From: an uncultured Candidatus Poseidoniales archaeon
GTDB taxonomy: Archaea; Thermoplasmatota; Poseidoniia; Poseidoniales; Thalassarchaeaceae
DNA length: 50,359 nucleotides
Direction of reading: 5' to 3'
NCBI GenBank assembly: GCA_964586945.1
Contig: CAZPJQ010000002.1
Coordinates: 1 to 50,359 of the forward strand
In this document: positions 13,046 through 18,332 of the stretch, one piece after another
Position numbering within the stretch: position 1 is the first letter of the stretch
Layout: every line of letters begins with the position of its first letter
The notes under the pieces: model-generated
The model's input: only the letters and a program-made list of their open reading frames with translations
What the model was told of the DNA's origin: nothing
The model's database searches: none
Made by a program: the position numbers and the translations under genes

Positions 13046-15208
13046 ATGGGGCTTGAAGTGGACATGGGTTCAAGCTCCGCACCCCTCGCATTGGCGCTCC
13101 TGCTCATGTTTTCTCTCGCTTCTACCCTCCCCGCGCCTACGGGCGCGCTTGGGAACGGGTTTTCGAACGAGGGGGTGTCTAACGAGGGGACTGGAAGCAC
13201 GCAAGAAGATGAACAGGGTGTGGATTACGCTCAATTTGAGGGCAGCTTGGCTTCGGGCAGAAACTCCGTCGCCGCCTCGATCAGCCAACATGGTGAACTG
13301 GACGGACATCCAGCGTGGCTGCTCGGAATCGACGGTACTGGGGTCATCATCGCCAGCGCCGACTCTGGAATCGACCGCGACCACGCCTGCTTCCGTGATG
13401 CGACAGAACCTGGGGCATCTGGTAGTGAATGGAACAATGCCACCGGCACTCCTGGAGTTGCGCATCGGAAAATCCTCTTCCTCGACGAATCAATCGACAA
13501 TTGGGATAGCCAAGGTCACGAGCATTTCACCCACGGGACCCATGTGGCGGGAAGTCTGGTCTGTAGGTCGGTCTACGAGCAAGCGGCCGAGGATGTGGAG
13601 GATTGGCTGAACGCAACACCGGGTGAGGGGACTTCTCTTTCTCACGGCGCAAAACTGGTCTTCACGGATGTTGTTGGGGATGATGGGTGGGTGGTCCCGG
13701 AACCTTCGGTTCTGTTCACCACCGCGGCCGAAAACGGGGCGGTTATTCGCTCAGACTCCTGGGGGGATGCGACCACTGACTATACTGAAAGAACACGCCA
13801 ATTCGACTCGTGGCTCCACTCCGTTCCATGGGCCCTCTCGATAGTCGCCCCGGGAAACACCGGCAACGAGGTGCAAGAGCCTGCCAACGGATTCAATGTC
13901 GTCTCAGTTGGAGTCGCCAAGAAGGATGGTAGTGATGACCTCTGGATGTTGACACCACACTCACCTACTGCCCAAGGTCGGCAGGGGGTGGAATTCGTGG
14001 TCCCTGGAGTTTCGATAGTATCGGCCACATCTGATGGTGAGCATAATTCGTACAATGATGGGTGGAAGAGCAACTCCGGTAGTTCGATGGCCGCCCCTCA
14101 AGCGGCTGCTGCTGCTGCGTTGGTTCAACAGATGGTACAGGGTGGTTGGATCGCAGGTGGTGATGAACGGTTTGTGGTGGTTTTGAATCGGCCGGGCTGG
14201 GCGACTGTAGTCGACGAGAACCTGAGTGATGGGGAGTTACTCCTTGCAGAAGGCTTCACCCCCTCTGGCTCTCTCCTGCGGGCGCTCCTCTCCTTGAGTG
14301 CTGAATCGATAGAGGGGGGCAGACAAGGTAGCATCGTGCTTGGCCCGGGGCCCGATGACTCGCAGGGTTGGGGACTCGTCAACCTCTCCAGACTGGTCGA
14401 CTTCACCGGGGTCGGGGATTCTCTTGGGGATGAGCCTCTTGACCCGGCCCCAAATATCTGGATTCATGACTCCTTCCGACTCAAAGATGACAACTGGCAG
14501 GAGGTCGTAGCGTCGTGGCTCGATGGTGAGGCTAATTCAGCTGCTGCTCTGCAAGAAAATGAGTGGCGGGGTGAGGGTGCTGAAGGACCATTTCTTAGCA
14601 ATGGTGAATCACAGTCATGGCTCATGCCGTTAGTGCCTGGTGAGGATTTTGAGGTGAGGTTGGCTTGGACATCGACCCCTCATCCAAATCTCGACGATCT
14701 GGACCTTGTCGTTGAGGTAGATGGTGAATGGTATCATGGGAACCAATTCGACGGTTGGAACAGCAGCGCCTCAGAAGAACTTGGTTTAGGACAACAGAAC
14801 AGTACTTTGGAGGGTGTTCGAATCTCCGCAGAACGGTTGGTCGGAATTGAGAGCGTGACGGTCACGGTCAAGGCGGTCAGTGTGGTGGAATCCTCACGAT
14901 TGGGAGTGGTCGGTATGAATGGTGATAGTGTTGGGTTTGCTCTTGCGGTAAAGGGTGTTCTGAGCGCTGATGTGAGGCCTGAATCTAGTTGGGAGGTTGG
15001 GCCTAATGTTGTTGGAGATGGAGAGGTGAGTAGTCTTTGGCCACTCTTCATCGCTGTCCTCTTGATAGGGGTCGCAGTAGTCATAGAAGTGGGTTGGACT
15101 CGAGGGGTGACTGTCGAGGAGGCCGGAGTGACTAAAGGTCAACCTTCAAACCCTCAAGGGGTCTCGCTGTCCTCAGCGGTAGCACCGCACACAGGTGAAG
15201 AAGAATGA
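13046..15208 (+). CDS. subtilisin-like serine protease (peptidase S8), secreted and C-terminally membrane-anchored
   Basis: Signal peptide APLALALLLMFSLASTLPA. Catalytic triad contexts IIASADSGIDRDH (Asp), HGTHVAGS (His) and SGSSMAAPQAAAAAALV (Ser). A C-terminal TM helix LWPLFIAVLLIGVAVVIEVGW is followed by a ~40-aa tail. The start may be 13064. Confidence 0.9.
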   Translation: MGLEVDMGSSSAPLALALLLMFSLASTLPAPTGALGNGFSNEGVSNEGTGSTQEDEQGVDYAQFEGSLASGRNSVAASISQHGELDGHPAWLLGIDGTGVIIASADSGIDRDHACFRDATEPGASGSEWNNATGTPGVAHRKILFLDESIDNWDSQGHEHFTHGTHVAGSLVCRSVYEQAAEDVEDWLNATPGEGTSLSHGAKLVFTDVVGDDGWVVPEPSVLFTTAAENGAVIRSDSWGDATTDYTERTRQFDSWLHSVPWALSIVAPGNTGNEVQEPANGFNVVSVGVAKKDGSDDLWMLTPHSPTAQGRQGVEFVVPGVSIVSATSDGEHNSYNDGWKSNSGSSMAAPQAAAAAALVQQMVQGGWIAGGDERFVVVLNRPGWATVVDENLSDGELLLAEGFTPSGSLLRALLSLSAESIEGGRQGSIVLGPGPDDSQGWGLVNLSRLVDFTGVGDSLGDEPLDPAPNIWIHDSFRLKDDNWQEVVASWLDGEANSAAALQENEWRGEGAEGPFLSNGESQSWLMPLVPGEDFEVRLAWTSTPHPNLDDLDLVVEVDGEWYHGNQFDGWNSSASEELGLGQQNSTLEGVRISAERLVGIESVTVTVKAVSVVESSRLGVVGMNGDSVGFALAVKGVLSADVRPESSWEVGPNVVGDGEVSSLWPLFIAVLLIGVAVVIEVGWTRGVTVEEAGVTKGQPSNPQGVSLSSAVAPHTGEEE

Positions 15209-16209
15209 GCGAGCGACTATATCTCGGAATCGATTTGGGAACCTTCCAAAGCACGATTTCAGCATCTAATGGAGAAGTACACACGGTGGAAACCGTGGTT
15301 GGAAAGCCGAAGGACCCGATTGCGAGGAACTTCTTGAAGAGAGATACTCTGTTCGGTTCGGAAGCTCTGAAGAACAAACTCGCCTGCAACCTATACCACC
15401 CACTGGCGGCTGGTGTTGCACAGGATGACGAGAATAACCTCGCCGCGGCGAAGTCGTTCGTTACCCACCTGGTCGAAACGGTCGACCCGGAAGAGTTCGA
15501 TGAGGTGTTTGGTGTGATTTGCTCACCCTCACACATCTCATTCGTGGACAAGAGCAATCTCGTTAGCATTCTACGCGGTCAGGTCAATGCAATCATGGTC
15601 GTCAGTGAGCCGTTTGCAGTAGCCTTCGGACTTGATGAGATAGGTGGTTCCATTGTCGTCGACATAGGTGCGGGAACCACAGACATCGCCCGAGTCTACG
15701 GAACCTTCCCAAGTGAAGAAGACCAGGACACTGTATCTGAAGCTGGAGACTGGATTGACGAGCGACTCATGGAGCTCGTTGCCAAGAAGTACACTGGTGC
15801 GCAACTCACCAAGGATATGGTGCGACGCTGGAAGGAGGATGGTTCCTATGTTGGCGGTGATGTTCGAGAGCAAATGGTCGAACTTTCAGTGGATGGTAAG
15901 AAACAGGTTGTCGATGTTGGCGACCTCGTACAGATTGCATGTGAGGAGTTGATTCCACACATGGTTGGTGCGATTAAGCGAATTGTTTCATCTGCAGATC
16001 CGGAGTACCAACCAATCCTACGCAACAACATCATCCTCTCAGGGGGGGGTTCTCTAATCGATGGCATCTCCGATAGGATAGCTGATGAGTTGGCTGACAT
16101 AGGGGATGTACGTGTTTGGTGCTGCGACGAGCCCATCGTTCGTGTCGCTGATGGTGCTCTAAAACTGTCAATGGTCATGCCAGATGACCAATACACAGCC
16201 ATCAGTTAA
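15205..16209 (+). CDS. actin-family ATPase, MamK-like (MreB/MamK clade)
   Basis: Actin-fold motifs: LGIDLGTFQS (phosphate 1), VVSEPFAVAFGL..IVVDIGAGTTDI (phosphate 2) and ILSGGGSLIDG (adenosine). Several strings match MamK as I remember it (VVGKPKD, YHPLAAGV, PSEEDQDTVSEAGDWIDERL, IACEELIPHMV, PEYQ). AGGTGA lies 7 nt upstream, and the ATG overlaps the protease stop (ATGA). Confidence 0.85.
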   Translation: MSERLYLGIDLGTFQSTISASNGEVHTVETVVGKPKDPIARNFLKRDTLFGSEALKNKLACNLYHPLAAGVAQDDENNLAAAKSFVTHLVETVDPEEFDEVFGVICSPSHISFVDKSNLVSILRGQVNAIMVVSEPFAVAFGLDEIGGSIVVDIGAGTTDIARVYGTFPSEEDQDTVSEAGDWIDERLMELVAKKYTGAQLTKDMVRRWKEDGSYVGGDVREQMVELSVDGKKQVVDVGDLVQIACEELIPHMVGAIKRIVSSADPEYQPILRNNIILSGGGSLIDGISDRIADELADIGDVRVWCCDEPIVRVADGALKLSMVMPDDQYTAIS

Positions 16210-16222
16210 ACGCCGATTCCGG

Positions 16223-16240
16223 CAGACCCTAGGGGGTCTG
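16223..16240 (+). other. perfect 7-bp stem / 4-nt loop hairpin just after the actin-like gene's stop codon
   Basis: CAGACCC-TAGG-GGGTCTG begins 14 nt after the TAA at 16207-16209. No T-tract follows, so it is not a classical archaeal terminator; it could be an RNA processing or stability element. Confidence 0.3.
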
Positions 16241-16316
16241 TAGAAAGGCCTTACCACCCCGTTGGCTAGCGCAGGGTTCAAGAATGGTATTGCGCCGATA
16301 GGATTGTTGATTGAGT

Positions 16317-17483
16317 ATGGCGACCCCCTCCACCTCCTCTGAATCGAGCAACGGGGCCGGTGACATGGACCGTGCTGCTCTGTCTGGAATGTTGTCCTCA
16401 TATGACTCCAAGCAACTGGTTGACGAGGTCATTACTGCATGGGAGGAGTTGGCGGCGGCCAACAAGGACCTCGCCACATCAAGCCAACGAAACCGCGTTC
16501 TCGAGCTCGACCTCGCGGAGAGAGATGAGTTGGGTGTCCCTGAGCGCGCTCGTCTACTCAAAATGGAGGAAGATATGCGCGAGAGGGAAGCGCGTATTAT
16601 CCATCTTGAGAGAATGTTGGATGAGGTACGGCGTGAGAAAGAGGGTGTTGAGAACTCGGTTGGGGCGATTCGGGTTGACGATCTTGAGAGGAACAATGCT
16701 GAACTCTCAGAGAGAAGTGAGTCTCAGGCAACGATGATTTCCGAAATGGAGGGTAAGTTGGACCAATTGGTTGACGCGTTAGAGAAAGCTGCGGAAGCTG
16801 GCCTCACTTCAATCACTGCTGACGAGGTTCGCACCTTGAACAGAGAACTTGAAGAGGCTCATCGAAGAATTGAGACAGAACAGTCTGAGAGTAACGCAGT
16901 TGGGGGTGAGCGTGACCAGTTGCGTGAGATGGTTGAACAGACCGGGAGTCTGCTCGAACAGCGAGATCTTCGAATAAAGGAGATGGAAGGGCAACTTCAG
17001 AGAATCATGGAAGGGCCCCGCTCAATCTCTGCAGAGCATGACTACCTAGTGGAGCAAATCGAGGAGTTGAAGCGCCGCCTTCTTGAGCGGAATCGTGAGT
17101 ATGAGGCTCTGCGCCGACGGGAGAGAAGACTACACAGAGAGGTATTCGAGCGGGATGAGAGAATCCAACAGATGCAATTGACGATGTCGGATATCGAAGG
17201 TGGTCTGTCAGACCGTACCGCGGAGATGAAGACGCTTGAAGAGAGTCACGAGCGCTTGTTGGCTGAAGTGGAAGGACTTCGCCGTTCAGAGAGAACGAGG
17301 GAAGTGGTCAGTGGAGCATTCCAAGACACTCTTGGAGTTCTTCGCTCCCATGAACAACGCAAAGCACGGCGCGAGGCGTTGGGAATCGAGGAAGATGATT
17401 CGATTCCTGAACCCGGAGATGGTAATATGCCTGGAGGAACAGCACCAGCGGCCTTGCGTGACATCGATGAATTGGATGAATGA
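16317..17483 (+). CDS. long coiled-coil protein (hypothetical; E/R/L-rich heptad-like sequence throughout)
   Basis: About 390 aa that is almost entirely charged/Leu-rich helix-former sequence (e.g. RNREYEALRRRERRLHREVFERDERIQQMQL). It has an S/T-rich N-terminus and an acidic C-terminal peptide LRDIDELDE. No enzymatic motif. The track start at 16311 is TTG; an ATG lies at 16317. Confidence 0.7.
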   Translation: MATPSTSSESSNGAGDMDRAALSGMLSSYDSKQLVDEVITAWEELAAANKDLATSSQRNRVLELDLAERDELGVPERARLLKMEEDMREREARIIHLERMLDEVRREKEGVENSVGAIRVDDLERNNAELSERSESQATMISEMEGKLDQLVDALEKAAEAGLTSITADEVRTLNRELEEAHRRIETEQSESNAVGGERDQLREMVEQTGSLLEQRDLRIKEMEGQLQRIMEGPRSISAEHDYLVEQIEELKRRLLERNREYEALRRRERRLHREVFERDERIQQMQLTMSDIEGGLSDRTAEMKTLEESHERLLAEVEGLRRSERTREVVSGAFQDTLGVLRSHEQRKARREALGIEEDDSIPEPGDGNMPGGTAPAALRDIDELDE

Positions 17484-17489
17484 GGTTGT

Positions 17490-18332
17490 TCATCCCCTCA
17501 TTTCTGTGATCAAAACACTCAGTGCCTTGCGTAGATTTTCGATGTCGTCGAACTGTTCGGTGAGATTTCCCGTTACGACATAATCCGCTCCGGCCTCTAC
17601 CGCAGCGCGCGCGGACTGGCCGTCCCTAATTCCCCCACCAACGATGAGAACCAATTTCTCCGACGCATTCCTTGCCGCTTGAATCAATCTGGTGGAAACC
17701 GGTGTTTCTGCCCCACTACCCGCTTCAAGATAGAGAAGAGAAAAACCGTACGCCTCGGCACATACCGCATACGCTGCTGCAAGTTCCTCATCATCTACTT
17801 GTAGAAGGTCAGCTCTGCCAACCTCACCGACCTTACCACCTGGAGCACATATGACATAACCCATCGAAAGTGGTGTCACTCCTGCCTCCTTGATGTAAGG
17901 GGCGCCCATCACCTGTTCGCCAACAAGAAATTGACGCTCTCTACTATTCATGAGCATCATGAAAGTGATACCATCTGCAGCAGAGGAAAGCGCGTGGGCA
18001 CCTGCGGGAAAGAGAACCACAGGGACCTTCCAATCATCTTCAGACATGCCTGCATCCTGACTTGCATTCCAGGAACAAAGTTCGAGTGCTTCTTGGATTG
18101 ACTCCACAGTGGCATGGACATTATCTCCATCCGTTCCTGTTGAGCCGCCAACAAACACCATTCGACTCCCGGCACTGACCGCAGCTACGGCTCGCTTAGC
18201 AGCATCTTCGTGACTCTGTAAATTAGGGTCAATGAGAATCACATGGCCGGCGCCACGACTACTATCTCGCACATATGACAACAAGTCTAGGTGTGAAGAT
18301 GGACGCATGGCCACCCGAAGTGGAGCCGGCAT
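17490..18332 (-). CDS. geranylgeranylglyceryl phosphate synthase (PcrB/GGGPS family)
   Basis: VILIDPN, VFVGGSTG and LIVGGGIRDGQSARAAVEAGADYVVTGN are the TIM-barrel GGGPS/PcrB signatures. Confidence 0.85.
   Translation of the reverse strand: MPAPLRVAMRPSSHLDLLSYVRDSSRGAGHVILIDPNLQSHEDAAKRAVAAVSAGSRMVFVGGSTGTDGDNVHATVESIQEALELCSWNASQDAGMSEDDWKVPVVLFPAGAHALSSAADGITFMMLMNSRERQFLVGEQVMGAPYIKEAGVTPLSMGYVICAPGGKVGEVGRADLLQVDDEELAAAYAVCAEAYGFSLLYLEAGSGAETPVSTRLIQAARNASEKLVLIVGGGIRDGQSARAAVEAGADYVVTGNLTEQFDDIENLRKALSVLITEMRG

What the first reader, a model, noticed from the sequence alone, without database searches (positions are those of the whole stretch)
16210..17483. All-coiled-coil 390-aa partner downstream of the actin-like gene, preceded by a perfect hairpin
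About 100 nt after the actin-like gene lies a protein that is essentially one long coiled coil. It has an S/T-rich N-terminus and a short acidic C-terminal peptide (AALRDIDELDE). In known prokaryotic actin systems the filament gene is accompanied by adaptor or coiled-coil partners. Examples are crenactin with arcadins (including an SMC-like coiled coil), where arcadin-2 binds through a C-terminal peptide, and MamK with acidic MamJ. The intergenic hairpin CAGACCC-TAGG-GGGTCTG (16223-16240) could set the stoichiometry between the two products. Protease, actin and coiled coil together look like a three-gene module that I cannot match to a described system.
Basis: partly seen in the sequence, partly recalled or inferred. 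Interest (0 to 1): 0.6.

Follow-up and report, generated by a model that had tools for sequence, protein, structure and literature searches.

The report
Coiled-coil partner of archaeal MamK-like actin
In this Marine Group II ocean archaeon, the gene after a MamK-like actin gene encodes a long helical rod protein of an unnamed family found only in this order; it is probably a partner of the actin filament, and no paper found here describes it.

Summary
Positions 16317-17483 (+) encode a 388-aa protein; a TTG at 16311 would give 390 aa. It starts 107 nt after a MamK-family actin gene. It is about 90% helix with strong heptad periodicity, has a disordered N-terminus, and ends in an acidic tail. 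The 7-bp/4-nt hairpin at 16223-16240 is real.

The protein matches no Pfam, NCBIfam or PDB family and has no ATPase head. The family is confined to Poseidoniales. In about 76 sampled genomes with this actin, the gene lies downstream on the same contig and strand.

The protein is modular:
- a conserved head helix plus coil 1 (aa 14-160);
- two invariant breaks;
- an ultra-conserved block (aa 237-290);
- a variable linker and a conserved PGG..P.L..acidic C-terminal motif.

One lineage of small-genome genera has neither actin nor the protease. It keeps only the N-terminal 150 aa, under purifying selection.

In relatives, the actin and rod genes carry related upstream motifs, so the rod gene probably has its own promoter. 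The hairpin varies in sequence and strength, and a stoichiometry role is not supported.

Best reading (about 0.55): a dimeric rod that is tied to the actin through its C-terminal two-thirds. Binding is untested. This scan has noted the same gene pair before in other genomes.

The parts
13046..15208 (+). Membrane-anchored S8 subtilase (720 aa). It is the upstream neighbour, and its stop overlaps the actin start (ATGA).
   Evidence: Pfam Peptidase_S8, 79 bits. Found on the same contig upstream of the actin in relatives, and not found where the actin is not found.
15137..15149 (+). GGTCAACCTTCAA: the window's own, diverged copy of the motif G[GT]GAA-NN-TT[CG]AA upstream of the actin gene. It lies inside the 3' end of the protease gene.
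   Evidence: Unique in the 1.89-Mb genome. The motif sits at the equivalent place upstream of the actin gene in relatives.
15205..16209 (+). MamK-family actin-like gene (334 aa).
   Evidence: NCBIfam MamK NF040964 scores 335 bits (cutoff 400), BeeR 203, MreB 79. Best PDB matches are MamK 5jyg/5ljv/5ljw, E = 6.5e-65.
16223..16240 (+). Perfect hairpin, 7-bp stem and 4-nt loop, 14 nt after the actin stop codon.
   Evidence: Read directly. Local fold z = -3.3. Hairpins at this place in relatives differ in sequence and strength.
16275..16287 (+). GGTTCAAGAATGG: conserved motif 30-42 nt upstream of the rod gene's ATG; candidate promoter or operator.
   Evidence: Present in all 20 long-form loci, and as AAGGTTCAA in short-form loci. 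Related to the actin-upstream motif. One exact copy in the window.
16317..17483 (+). Coiled-coil rod protein gene (388 aa plus stop). An alternative TTG start at 16311 gives 390 aa.
16356..16796 (+). N-module, aa 14-160: conserved head helix (DRAALxGML..QLVxEVxxAW) plus coil 1. This is the part kept as a stand-alone gene of about 150 aa in actin-less genera.
   Evidence: Alignment A1. Short forms. Their dN/dS is 0.02-0.18.
16797..16817 (+). Conserved helix break AGLTSIT (aa 161-167); boundary between the N- and C-modules.
   Evidence: Column identity 0.92. Low pLDDT at 162-164. The short forms end just before it.
16818..17012 (+). Coil 2 (aa 168-232).
   Evidence: Helix 168-232. Heptad windows above the shuffled null.
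17013..17186 (+). Invariant GPRS break (aa 233-236) plus the ultra-conserved, charge-neutral coil block (aa 237-290: SAEHDYLVEQIEELKRRLLERNREYE...).
   Evidence: Mean column identity 0.93 and 67% invariant columns, against 0.67-0.68 in the other coils.
17187..17381 (+). Coil 3b (aa 291-355).
17382..17429 (+). Variable acidic linker of low predicted order (aa 356-371). It is 25-30 aa longer in family f3.
   Evidence: No helix predicted; pLDDT falls to the mid-40s (under 50 from aa 363). Column identity 0.49 and an insertion in f3.
17430..17480 (+). Conserved C-terminal motif PGGxxxPxLxD/E followed by acidic residues (aa 372-388); candidate short linear binding motif.
   Evidence: P372, G373 and G374 are invariant; P378 is conserved in 90% or more of the sequences; the end is hydrophobic then acidic.

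Best explanation
The gene encodes a lineage-specific, probably dimeric coiled-coil rod that works with the neighbouring MamK-like actin filament of Poseidoniales (Marine Group II archaea). The proposal is a two-module adaptor.

The C-terminal two-thirds is the part tied to the actin. It comprises coil 2, the ultra-conserved block at aa 237-290, coil 3b, a flexible acidic linker and the conserved PGG..P.L..acidic end. It could lie along the filament, or dock its terminal peptide on an actin subunit.

The N-terminal module (head helix plus coil 1, aa 14-160) has an actin-independent job, such as self-association or attachment to another cell component.

The rod gene is probably transcribed from its own conserved upstream element. 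That element resembles the one upstream of the actin gene, so the two genes would be co-regulated rather than strictly co-transcribed. The hairpin after the actin stop would then mark or stabilise the 3' end of the actin message.

Shown: fold type, family limits, synteny, modular conservation, phyletic pattern and motif sharing. Inferred: dimerisation, any contact with actin, the roles of the two modules, and the promoter and terminator functions.
For: 1. Synteny.
- In 41 relatives, the rod gene is found in 30, the actin in 37 and the protease in 30. They lie in the same order on the same contig and strand in three families.
- In the class-level sample of 151 genomes, every genome with the orthologous actin also has the full-length rod gene downstream on the same contig and strand. 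This covers family f3 (65 of 65) and six genera of f1. The gap is about 75-200 nt in all but four genomes.
- All 20 fetched loci show actin then rod with gaps of 74-118 nt.

2. The family is narrow and specific.
- A profile search of 1.84 billion representative proteins gave only 139 hits, nearly all fragments of the same family.
- The other order of the class gave 1 of 43 genomes, and that one is a likely contaminant.

3. Co-loss.
- In genera g4 and g12-g16 of family f1 (genomes of 1.2-1.6 Mb), 0 of 28 genomes have either actin and 1 of 28 has the protease.
- In those genera the rod gene is either not found or cut to the N-terminal 150-180 aa. It sits at the same site, convergent with the GGGP synthase gene in six of the eight fetched loci.
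- The short gene is under purifying selection, dN/dS 0.02-0.18.

4. Conservation pattern.
- The peak is in the C-module: aa 237-290 has 0.93 column identity and 67% invariant columns, against 0.67-0.68 elsewhere in the rod. That is more than a spacer coil needs.
- The C-terminal motif is conserved beyond a variable linker. This is the layout of a tethered short linear motif.

5. Shared upstream motif.
- G[GT]GAA-NN-TT[CG]AA occurs upstream of both the actin and the rod gene in 12 of 20 loci, at one of the two in 6 more, and nowhere else in those loci.

6. Precedent (established knowledge).
- Prokaryotic actins commonly work with coiled-coil or peptide-docking partners.
- Examples are the arcadin-2 C-terminal helix in crenactin's hydrophobic groove and ParR in ParM's groove (PMC5173319), and the coiled-coil proteins Mad20/23/25/26 with MamK and Mad28 (PMC12748827).
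Against: - No experiment or computation here shows contact between the two proteins.
- The co-loss is a single evolutionary event. Short forms fall on one side of one branch of the N-module tree, and related genomes are not independent observations.
- That lineage also has reduced genomes, so streamlining alone could have removed several things at once.
- The N-module survives without any actin, so at least part of the protein has another function.
- The rod gene appears to have its own upstream element, and it keeps its position next to the GGGP synthase gene when the actin is gone. Adjacency may therefore partly be historical.
- The protease is equally syntenic, yet it need not be functionally linked. 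This shows that conserved neighbourhood in this lineage is not proof of function.
- The window's own copies of the shared motif are diverged.
Confidence: 0.55

Rival explanations
1. It is an intermediate-filament-like (crescentin-like) scaffold that self-assembles on its own into a cytoskeletal element. It sits beside the actin gene only because both serve cell architecture and share regulation, without direct binding.
For: - The layout is head, rod with short conserved breaks, then an acidic tail.
- Language-model look-alikes outside its own family are crescentin rod-domain clusters, score 0.92 with 142-146 shared features. This is a lead only.
- One homologue carries a precomputed PF19220 hit.
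- The N-module persists without any actin.
Against: - Rod_CreS scores 9-12 bits against a cutoff of 100, so membership fails.
- The loss of exactly the C-module together with the actins is not explained.
- Many unrelated coiled coils share the head-rod-tail plan.
Confidence: 0.17
2. It is a long-standing neighbour with an unrelated role, for example at the membrane or in lipid biogenesis with the convergent GGGP synthase operon. Synteny with the actin would then reflect low gene-order turnover in this order.
For: - In actin-less genera, the short form keeps its place convergent with the GGGP synthase gene in six of the eight fetched loci.
- The gene has its own conserved upstream motif.
- The equally syntenic protease shows that neighbourhood can persist.
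Against: - In family f3 the downstream neighbour is a different gene, while the actin-rod adjacency is retained.
- The actin and rod genes share an upstream motif not seen elsewhere in the loci.
- The C-module disappears together with the actins.
Confidence: 0.15
3. It is an SMC/Rad50-like or chromosome-segregation coiled coil, as some database annotations suggest ('chromosome segregation ATPase'). It would act in DNA segregation, with the actin as a ParM-like motor.
For: - Source annotations on homologues read 'chromosome segregation ATPase'.
- There are weak NCBIfam hits to SMC, the archaea-specific SMC-related protein and Rad50.
Against: - Those hits cover only coil regions and score 12-29 bits against cutoffs of 300-1087.
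- There is no Walker A/B head, no hinge and no DNA-binding domain. The protein is 388 aa with net charge -35.
- No PDB relative was found at E <= 0.01.
- No centromere-like repeat array was looked for here, so a segregation role for the pair is not excluded. Only SMC membership is excluded.
Confidence: 0.05

Closest known systems
MamK with its partners in magnetotactic bacteria: acidic MamJ, McaA/McaB, and the coiled-coil proteins Mad20/23/25/26 with MamK and Mad28 in Desulfovibrio magneticus RS-1 (PMC12748827)
   Same: The neighbouring actin is MamK-family by sequence. NCBIfam MamK scores 335 bits, and the best PDB matches are MamK structures at E = 6.5e-65. As in those systems, an actin-like filament gene is accompanied by an acidic and/or coiled-coil protein encoded nearby.
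   Different: The organism is an archaeon. This scan's earlier notes report no magnetosome genes, which I did not test. The rod protein has no detectable sequence similarity to any family in Pfam, NCBIfam or the PDB. The actin scores below the MamK family cutoff of 400. Mad and MamJ sequences were not compared directly.
Crenactin with arcadins, the arcade cluster of Crenarchaea (PMC5173319)
   Same: This is an archaeal actin whose gene neighbours encode its regulators. Arcadin-2 acts through a conserved C-terminal helix that docks in the actin's hydrophobic groove. Arcadin-4 is an SMC/Rad50-like coiled coil. The protein here likewise ends in a conserved short motif after a flexible linker.
   Different: The actin here is MamK-like, not crenactin-like: the crenactin model scores 13.6 bits. 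The rod has no ATPase head and is about twice the length of arcadin-2, which has 203 aa according to the paper. Peptide docking is only an analogy here.
Crescentin and bacterial IF-like coiled-coil-rich proteins (Pfam Rod_CreS, PF19220)
   Same: Head-rod-tail layout with short breaks in the rod. These are also the nearest non-self look-alikes by language-model features.
   Different: The family threshold is far from met: 9-12 bits against 100. Self-assembly is untested. Crescentin is not encoded next to an actin gene as a rule (from my own knowledge).
Tropomyosin (eukaryotic actin-binding dimeric coiled coil)
   Same: A parallel-dimer rod lying along an actin filament is one way the ultra-conserved block could work.
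   Different: No homology: Pfam Tropomyosin scores 9.7 bits against 38.6 on one homologue. No actin-period repeat was looked for.

Membership tests
SMC / Rad50 / archaea-specific SMC-related protein | N- and C-terminal ABC-type ATPase head halves (Walker A, Walker B, signature motif) | tested here: not met
   The NCBIfam matches cover coil positions only (for example SMC_prok_B model positions 683-909). They score 29.2, 23.5, 18.7 and 11.8 bits against cutoffs of 567, 729, 300 and 1087. No P-loop family was found by Pfam.
SMC / Rad50 / archaea-specific SMC-related protein | Hinge or zinc-hook domain in the middle of an antiparallel coil | tested here: not met
   The two breaks are 7 and 4 residues long (AGLTSIT, GPRS). 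There is no globular insert and no CxxC.
Crescentin / IF-like (Pfam PF19220 Rod_CreS) | Score at or above the Pfam gathering threshold for the rod domain | tested here: not met
   9.0-11.7 bits against a cutoff of 100 on four homologues. The window's own protein gave no hit at E <= 0.1.
Crescentin / IF-like (Pfam PF19220 Rod_CreS) | Nucleotide-independent self-assembly into filaments | not testable with these tools
   This needs purified protein.
Arcadin-2-type actin regulator | Conserved C-terminal helix that binds the actin's hydrophobic groove and depolymerises filaments (PMC5173319) | tested here: inconclusive
   A conserved C-terminal motif exists. Binding could not be assessed. No sequence relative was found in the PDB at E <= 0.01.
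Partner of a MamK-type filament (functional class, not a sequence family) | Conserved genomic linkage and co-occurrence with a MamK-family actin | tested here: met
   The rod gene is on the same contig and strand, directly downstream, in all sampled genomes with the orthologous actin. The C-module is not found where the actins are not found.
Partner of a MamK-type filament (functional class, not a sequence family) | Physical interaction with the filament | not testable with these tools
   No experimental data are available.
Coiled-coil protein (structural class) | Long alpha-helices with heptad (3.5-residue) hydrophobic periodicity | tested here: met
   Helices of 130, 65 and 119 residues. Periodicity at 3.5 residues has z = 9.5, against z = 2.4 at 3.6.

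The most novel reading that the evidence does not exclude
Protease, actin and rod form one transmembrane machine. The short cytoplasmic tail of the surface-anchored S8 protease would be held or positioned by the MamK-like filament. The rod would be a two-ended adaptor: its C-module on the filament and its N-module on a membrane or envelope component. This would give these protein-degrading plankton a cytoskeleton-organised cell-surface digestive apparatus, a use of a prokaryotic actin with no described precedent.
Probability: 0.08. Interest if true: 0.85.

Novelty: new variant of a known kind. Interest (0 to 1): 0.55.

Why it matters
Poseidoniales (Marine Group II) are among the most abundant archaea of the surface ocean and have never been cultured, so their cell biology is known only from genomes.

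- **A possible filament system.** A strongly conserved MamK-like actin with a dedicated, order-specific rod protein points to an internal filament system that databases label 'MreB', 'chromosome segregation ATPase' or 'hypothetical'.
- **Defined constructs.** The modular anatomy found here gives concrete pieces for biochemistry: the N-module that survives without actin, the ultra-conserved block at aa 237-290, and the tethered C-terminal motif.
- **A natural comparison.** Lineages with and without the system can be compared directly.
- **Evolution of actin partners.** The case bears on how actin partners arise. A peptide-docking or filament-lining partner here would have evolved independently of arcadins, ParR and the magnetosome proteins.

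Tried and rejected
- **Complex prediction.** I ran the actin (alignment A2) with the rod tail, aa 336-388 (alignment A1). The result was 'no answer', score 0.00 in both runs, and controls were not run. This is evidence neither for nor against binding.
- **Foldseek of the AF2 model against the PDB**. Nothing reached E <= 0.001, as expected for an extended helical rod.
- **Pfam, NCBIfam and PDB sequence searches**. These gave only sub-threshold hits of the kind coiled coils attract by composition (CheZ, EzrA, SMC coil, MCPsignal, Rod_CreS, Tropomyosin). A weak SAB (spectrin-actin-binding) hit on the ultra-conserved block in homologues (E 0.08-0.46) is at noise level and was not used.
- **RNA evidence**.
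  - Nine marine RNA-library runs held only small shares of the sampled words (0.05-0.08), and four of them were laid. What was laid are Logan contigs of relatives, 90-95% alike.
  - They cover the actin gene and pieces of the rod gene. One 151-nt contig bridges 16181-16331, and other contigs stop at 16222-16250.
  - Cover follows sequence conservation, contigs cannot show RNA ends, and DNA may be present in these libraries. Nothing can be said about read-through of the hairpin, and uncovered parts mean nothing.
The context of the short forms was obtained through the genome search instead.
- **Hairpin as a repeated (REP/MITE-like) element.** Rejected: the pattern occurs at two places in the genome.
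- **The upstream motif as a general promoter consensus of this genome.** Rejected: there is one exact copy in the window, and near-matches are at chance level.
- **A coiled-coil partner next to the second actin paralogue.** Not there: its neighbour is a zinc-ribbon protein.
- **Literature.** Searches for an actin or MamK-like system in Marine Group II, Poseidoniales or Thermoplasmatota found no paper describing it in the held library.
Full report
**What is there**

The window comes from an archaeon. It carries genes for GGGP synthase, prefoldin, FtsY and a beta-CASP RNase. Named homologues place it in Poseidoniales, family Thalassarchaeaceae, that is Marine Group II.

The frame 16311-17483 (+) is open. 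Database homologues are 388 aa and the first ATG is 16317, so the gene most likely runs 16317-17483. It begins 107 nt after a 334-aa actin-like gene (15205-16209). That actin scores 335 bits on the NCBIfam MamK model (cutoff 400), 203 on BeeR and 79 on MreB. Its best solved relatives are MamK structures 5jyg, 5ljv and 5ljw at E = 6.5e-65. Upstream lies an S8 subtilase (13046-15208) whose stop overlaps the actin start.

**Check of the observation**

- AlphaFold2 with an 11-sequence alignment gave mean pLDDT 80. It predicts helices at 14-27, 31-160, 168-232 and 237-355, and a tail with pLDDT under 50 at 363-382.
- My own heptad test gave a periodicity peak at 3.5 residues with z = 9.5 against shuffles, compared with 2.4 at 3.6 residues. 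41% of 28-residue windows lie above the 95th percentile of shuffled sequence.
- The protein is 24% D+E and 15% K+R, with net charge -35.
- The S/T-rich start is real but not conserved. The acidic end belongs to a conserved motif.
- The hairpin CAGACCC-TAGG-GGGTCTG sits at 16223-16240. Its local fold has z = -3.3.
- Perfect hairpins with stems of 7 bp or more are common by chance: 28 in the window against 19.8 +/- 5.3 in shuffles. The sequence is not a dispersed repeat.

**What family it is**

It belongs to no described family. Pfam and NCBIfam give only sub-threshold coil-on-coil hits. The SMC hit scores 29 bits against a cutoff of 567, and the crescentin rod 9-12 bits against 100. A profile of the family finds nothing in the PDB, and Foldseek finds nothing. 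There is no ATPase head, hinge or transmembrane segment.

A profile search of 1.84 billion representative proteins returned only 139 hits, nearly all fragments of this same family from marine metagenomes. In genome searches the family is confined to the order. The sister order gave 1 of 43 genomes. That genome has 5% contamination and carries an 87%-identical actin on the same small contig, so it is most likely a contaminant.

**Anatomy from the alignment across three families (A1)**

| Residues | Feature | Conservation |
|---|---|---|
| 1-13 | Variable N-terminus | column identity 0.37 |
| 14-30 | Head helix, DRAALxGML..QLVxEVxxAW | conserved |
| 31-160 | Coil 1 | 0.68 |
| 161-167 | Break AGLTSIT | 0.92 |
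| 168-232 | Coil 2 | 0.67 |
| 233-236 | Break GPRS | invariant |
| 237-290 | Ultra-conserved, charge-neutral block | 0.93; 67% invariant columns |
| 291-355 | Coil 3b | 0.68 |
| 356-371 | Variable acidic linker (25-30 aa longer in family f3) | 0.49 |
| 372-388 | C-terminal motif: PGG invariant, Pro378, a hydrophobic residue, then acidic residues | 0.65 |

This is more structure than 'one long coiled coil' suggests. The level of conservation in the 237-290 block is far above what a spacer rod needs.

**Synteny and phyletic pattern**

In 41 relatives, the rod gene (30 genomes), the actin (37) and the protease (30) lie in the same order, on the same contig and strand, in three families. All 20 fetched loci show actin then rod with gaps of 74-118 nt.

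In a class-level sample of 151 genomes, every genome with the orthologous actin has the full-length rod gene downstream on the same contig and strand. Four have larger gaps of 0.6-3.9 kb. Family f3 is 65 of 65 for all three genes.

A group of small-genome genera in family f1 (g4, g12-g16; 1.2-1.6 Mb) behaves differently:
- Neither this actin nor its 46%-identical paralogue is found (0 of 28 genomes).
- The protease is found in 1 of 28.
- The rod gene is either not found or is only 150-180 aa long, matching aa 14-160. It lies at the same site, and in six of the eight fetched loci it is still convergent with the GGGP synthase gene.
- These short genes are intact and under purifying selection, dN/dS 0.02-0.18 in unsaturated pairs.
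- They fall on one side of a single, fully supported branch of the N-module tree. The truncation was therefore probably one event.

So the C-terminal two-thirds disappeared together with the actins, while the N-module kept a function of its own. This is suggestive rather than statistical evidence, because it rests on one lineage that also underwent genome reduction.

**Regulatory signals**

All 20 long-form loci carry a conserved element 30-45 nt upstream of the rod ATG: AAGGTTCAAGAATGG in most, and GGTTCAAGAATGG at 16275-16287 here. The short forms keep AAGGTTCAA at the same distance.

A related element, GGTGAACCTTCAA, lies about 55-70 nt upstream of the actin ATG, inside the 3' end of the protease gene. 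The pattern G[GT]GAA-NN-TT[CG]AA occurs at both places in 12 of 20 loci, at one of them in 6 more, and nowhere else in those loci. The window's own copies are diverged. The actin-side copy (15137-15149) is unique in the genome. The element is not a general promoter consensus.

It suggests two similar, separately controlled starts rather than one obligatory operon.

The hairpin lies between the actin stop and this element. Hairpins occur there in most relatives, but with different sequences and very different strength. Seven of the eight other same-genus loci have weak ones, no better than shuffles. A role as the 3' end of the actin message is plausible. A tuned stoichiometry device is not supported.

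RNA-library contigs from four marine studies contain actin and rod sequences of close relatives. They cannot show transcript ends or read-through.

**How it most likely works**

I favour a dimeric rod that acts as a two-module adaptor of the MamK-like filament (confidence about 0.55). The C-module would be the actin-linked part. It could act through the ultra-conserved block lying on the filament, or through the tethered C-terminal motif docking on a subunit. The latter follows the precedent of arcadin-2 on crenactin and ParR on ParM (PMC5173319). The N-module would do something that does not need actin. The closest functional parallel is the network of coiled-coil Mad proteins with MamK and Mad28 in Desulfovibrio magneticus (PMC12748827).

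Nothing here shows contact. The one complex prediction returned no verdict and counts neither way.

Rivals:
- an IF-like self-assembling scaffold (0.17);
- a mere long-standing neighbour (0.15);
- an SMC-like segregation protein (0.05). Membership of that family fails on every defining feature tested.

**The three-gene module**

The co-occurrence of protease, actin and rod is confirmed. A functional link of the protease is not shown, and the actin seems to have its own upstream element inside the protease gene. I keep the machine-like reading only as the novel case (probability 0.08).

**Novelty**

No paper in the held library describes an actin system or this protein in Marine Group II. This scan has noted the same gene pair repeatedly in other Poseidoniales genomes. 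My results agree with those notes on the order-wide pair, the shared motif, the loss of the rear two-thirds with the actin, and the zinc-ribbon neighbour of the paralogue.

An actin with a coiled-coil partner is a known kind of system. The partner family and its modular behaviour are new, so I rate it a new variant of a known kind.

Noticed in passing
window 17474-17495: A second perfect hairpin, GGATGAA-(8 nt)-TTCATCC, spans the rod gene's stop codon. It lies in the 6-nt gap between the convergent rod and GGGP synthase genes and could be a shared 3'-end element.
   Followed up: no
L021:6540-7574 (-) and L021:7643-8719 (-), which is G000 contig C3: A second MamK-like actin paralogue (46% identical) is present in nearly all genomes that have the first. 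It is preceded by a 358-aa protein with Cys-rich zinc-ribbon-like ends and has no coiled-coil neighbour. Both actins are missing from the same small-genome genera.
   Followed up: partly
L022-L029 (genera g4, g12, g14, g15 of family f1): Stand-alone genes of 150-180 aa equal to the N-module of the rod protein. They sit at the same locus, convergent with the GGGP synthase gene in six of the eight loci, in genomes without any MamK-like actin. dN/dS is 0.02-0.18.
   Followed up: yes
window 15137-15149 and 16275-16287; relatives L003-L020: Related motifs of the form G[GT]GAA-NN-TT[CG]AA lie upstream of both the actin and the rod gene. The actin-side copy lies within the protease coding region, which suggests an internal promoter or operator for the actin.
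   Followed up: partly
G098:C38:36-2635 (a genome of the other order in the class): A small contig carries a protease fragment, an 87%-identical actin and a 402-aa rod gene. The genome has 5% contamination, so this is most likely a mis-binned Poseidoniales contig rather than presence of the system in that order.
   Followed up: no
window 15171-15183: GCGGTAGCACCGC, a small 5-bp stem-loop about 25-35 nt upstream of the actin ATG. It is conserved within the genus and followed by a GGTGA Shine-Dalgarno-like string. It lies inside the protease's C-terminal codons.
   Followed up: no
G027 (family f2): C24:7022-9195 and C4:20006-22253: Two copies of the actin-rod pair lie on different contigs of one genome that has 6% contamination. 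This could be a duplication or two strains in one bin.
   Followed up: no
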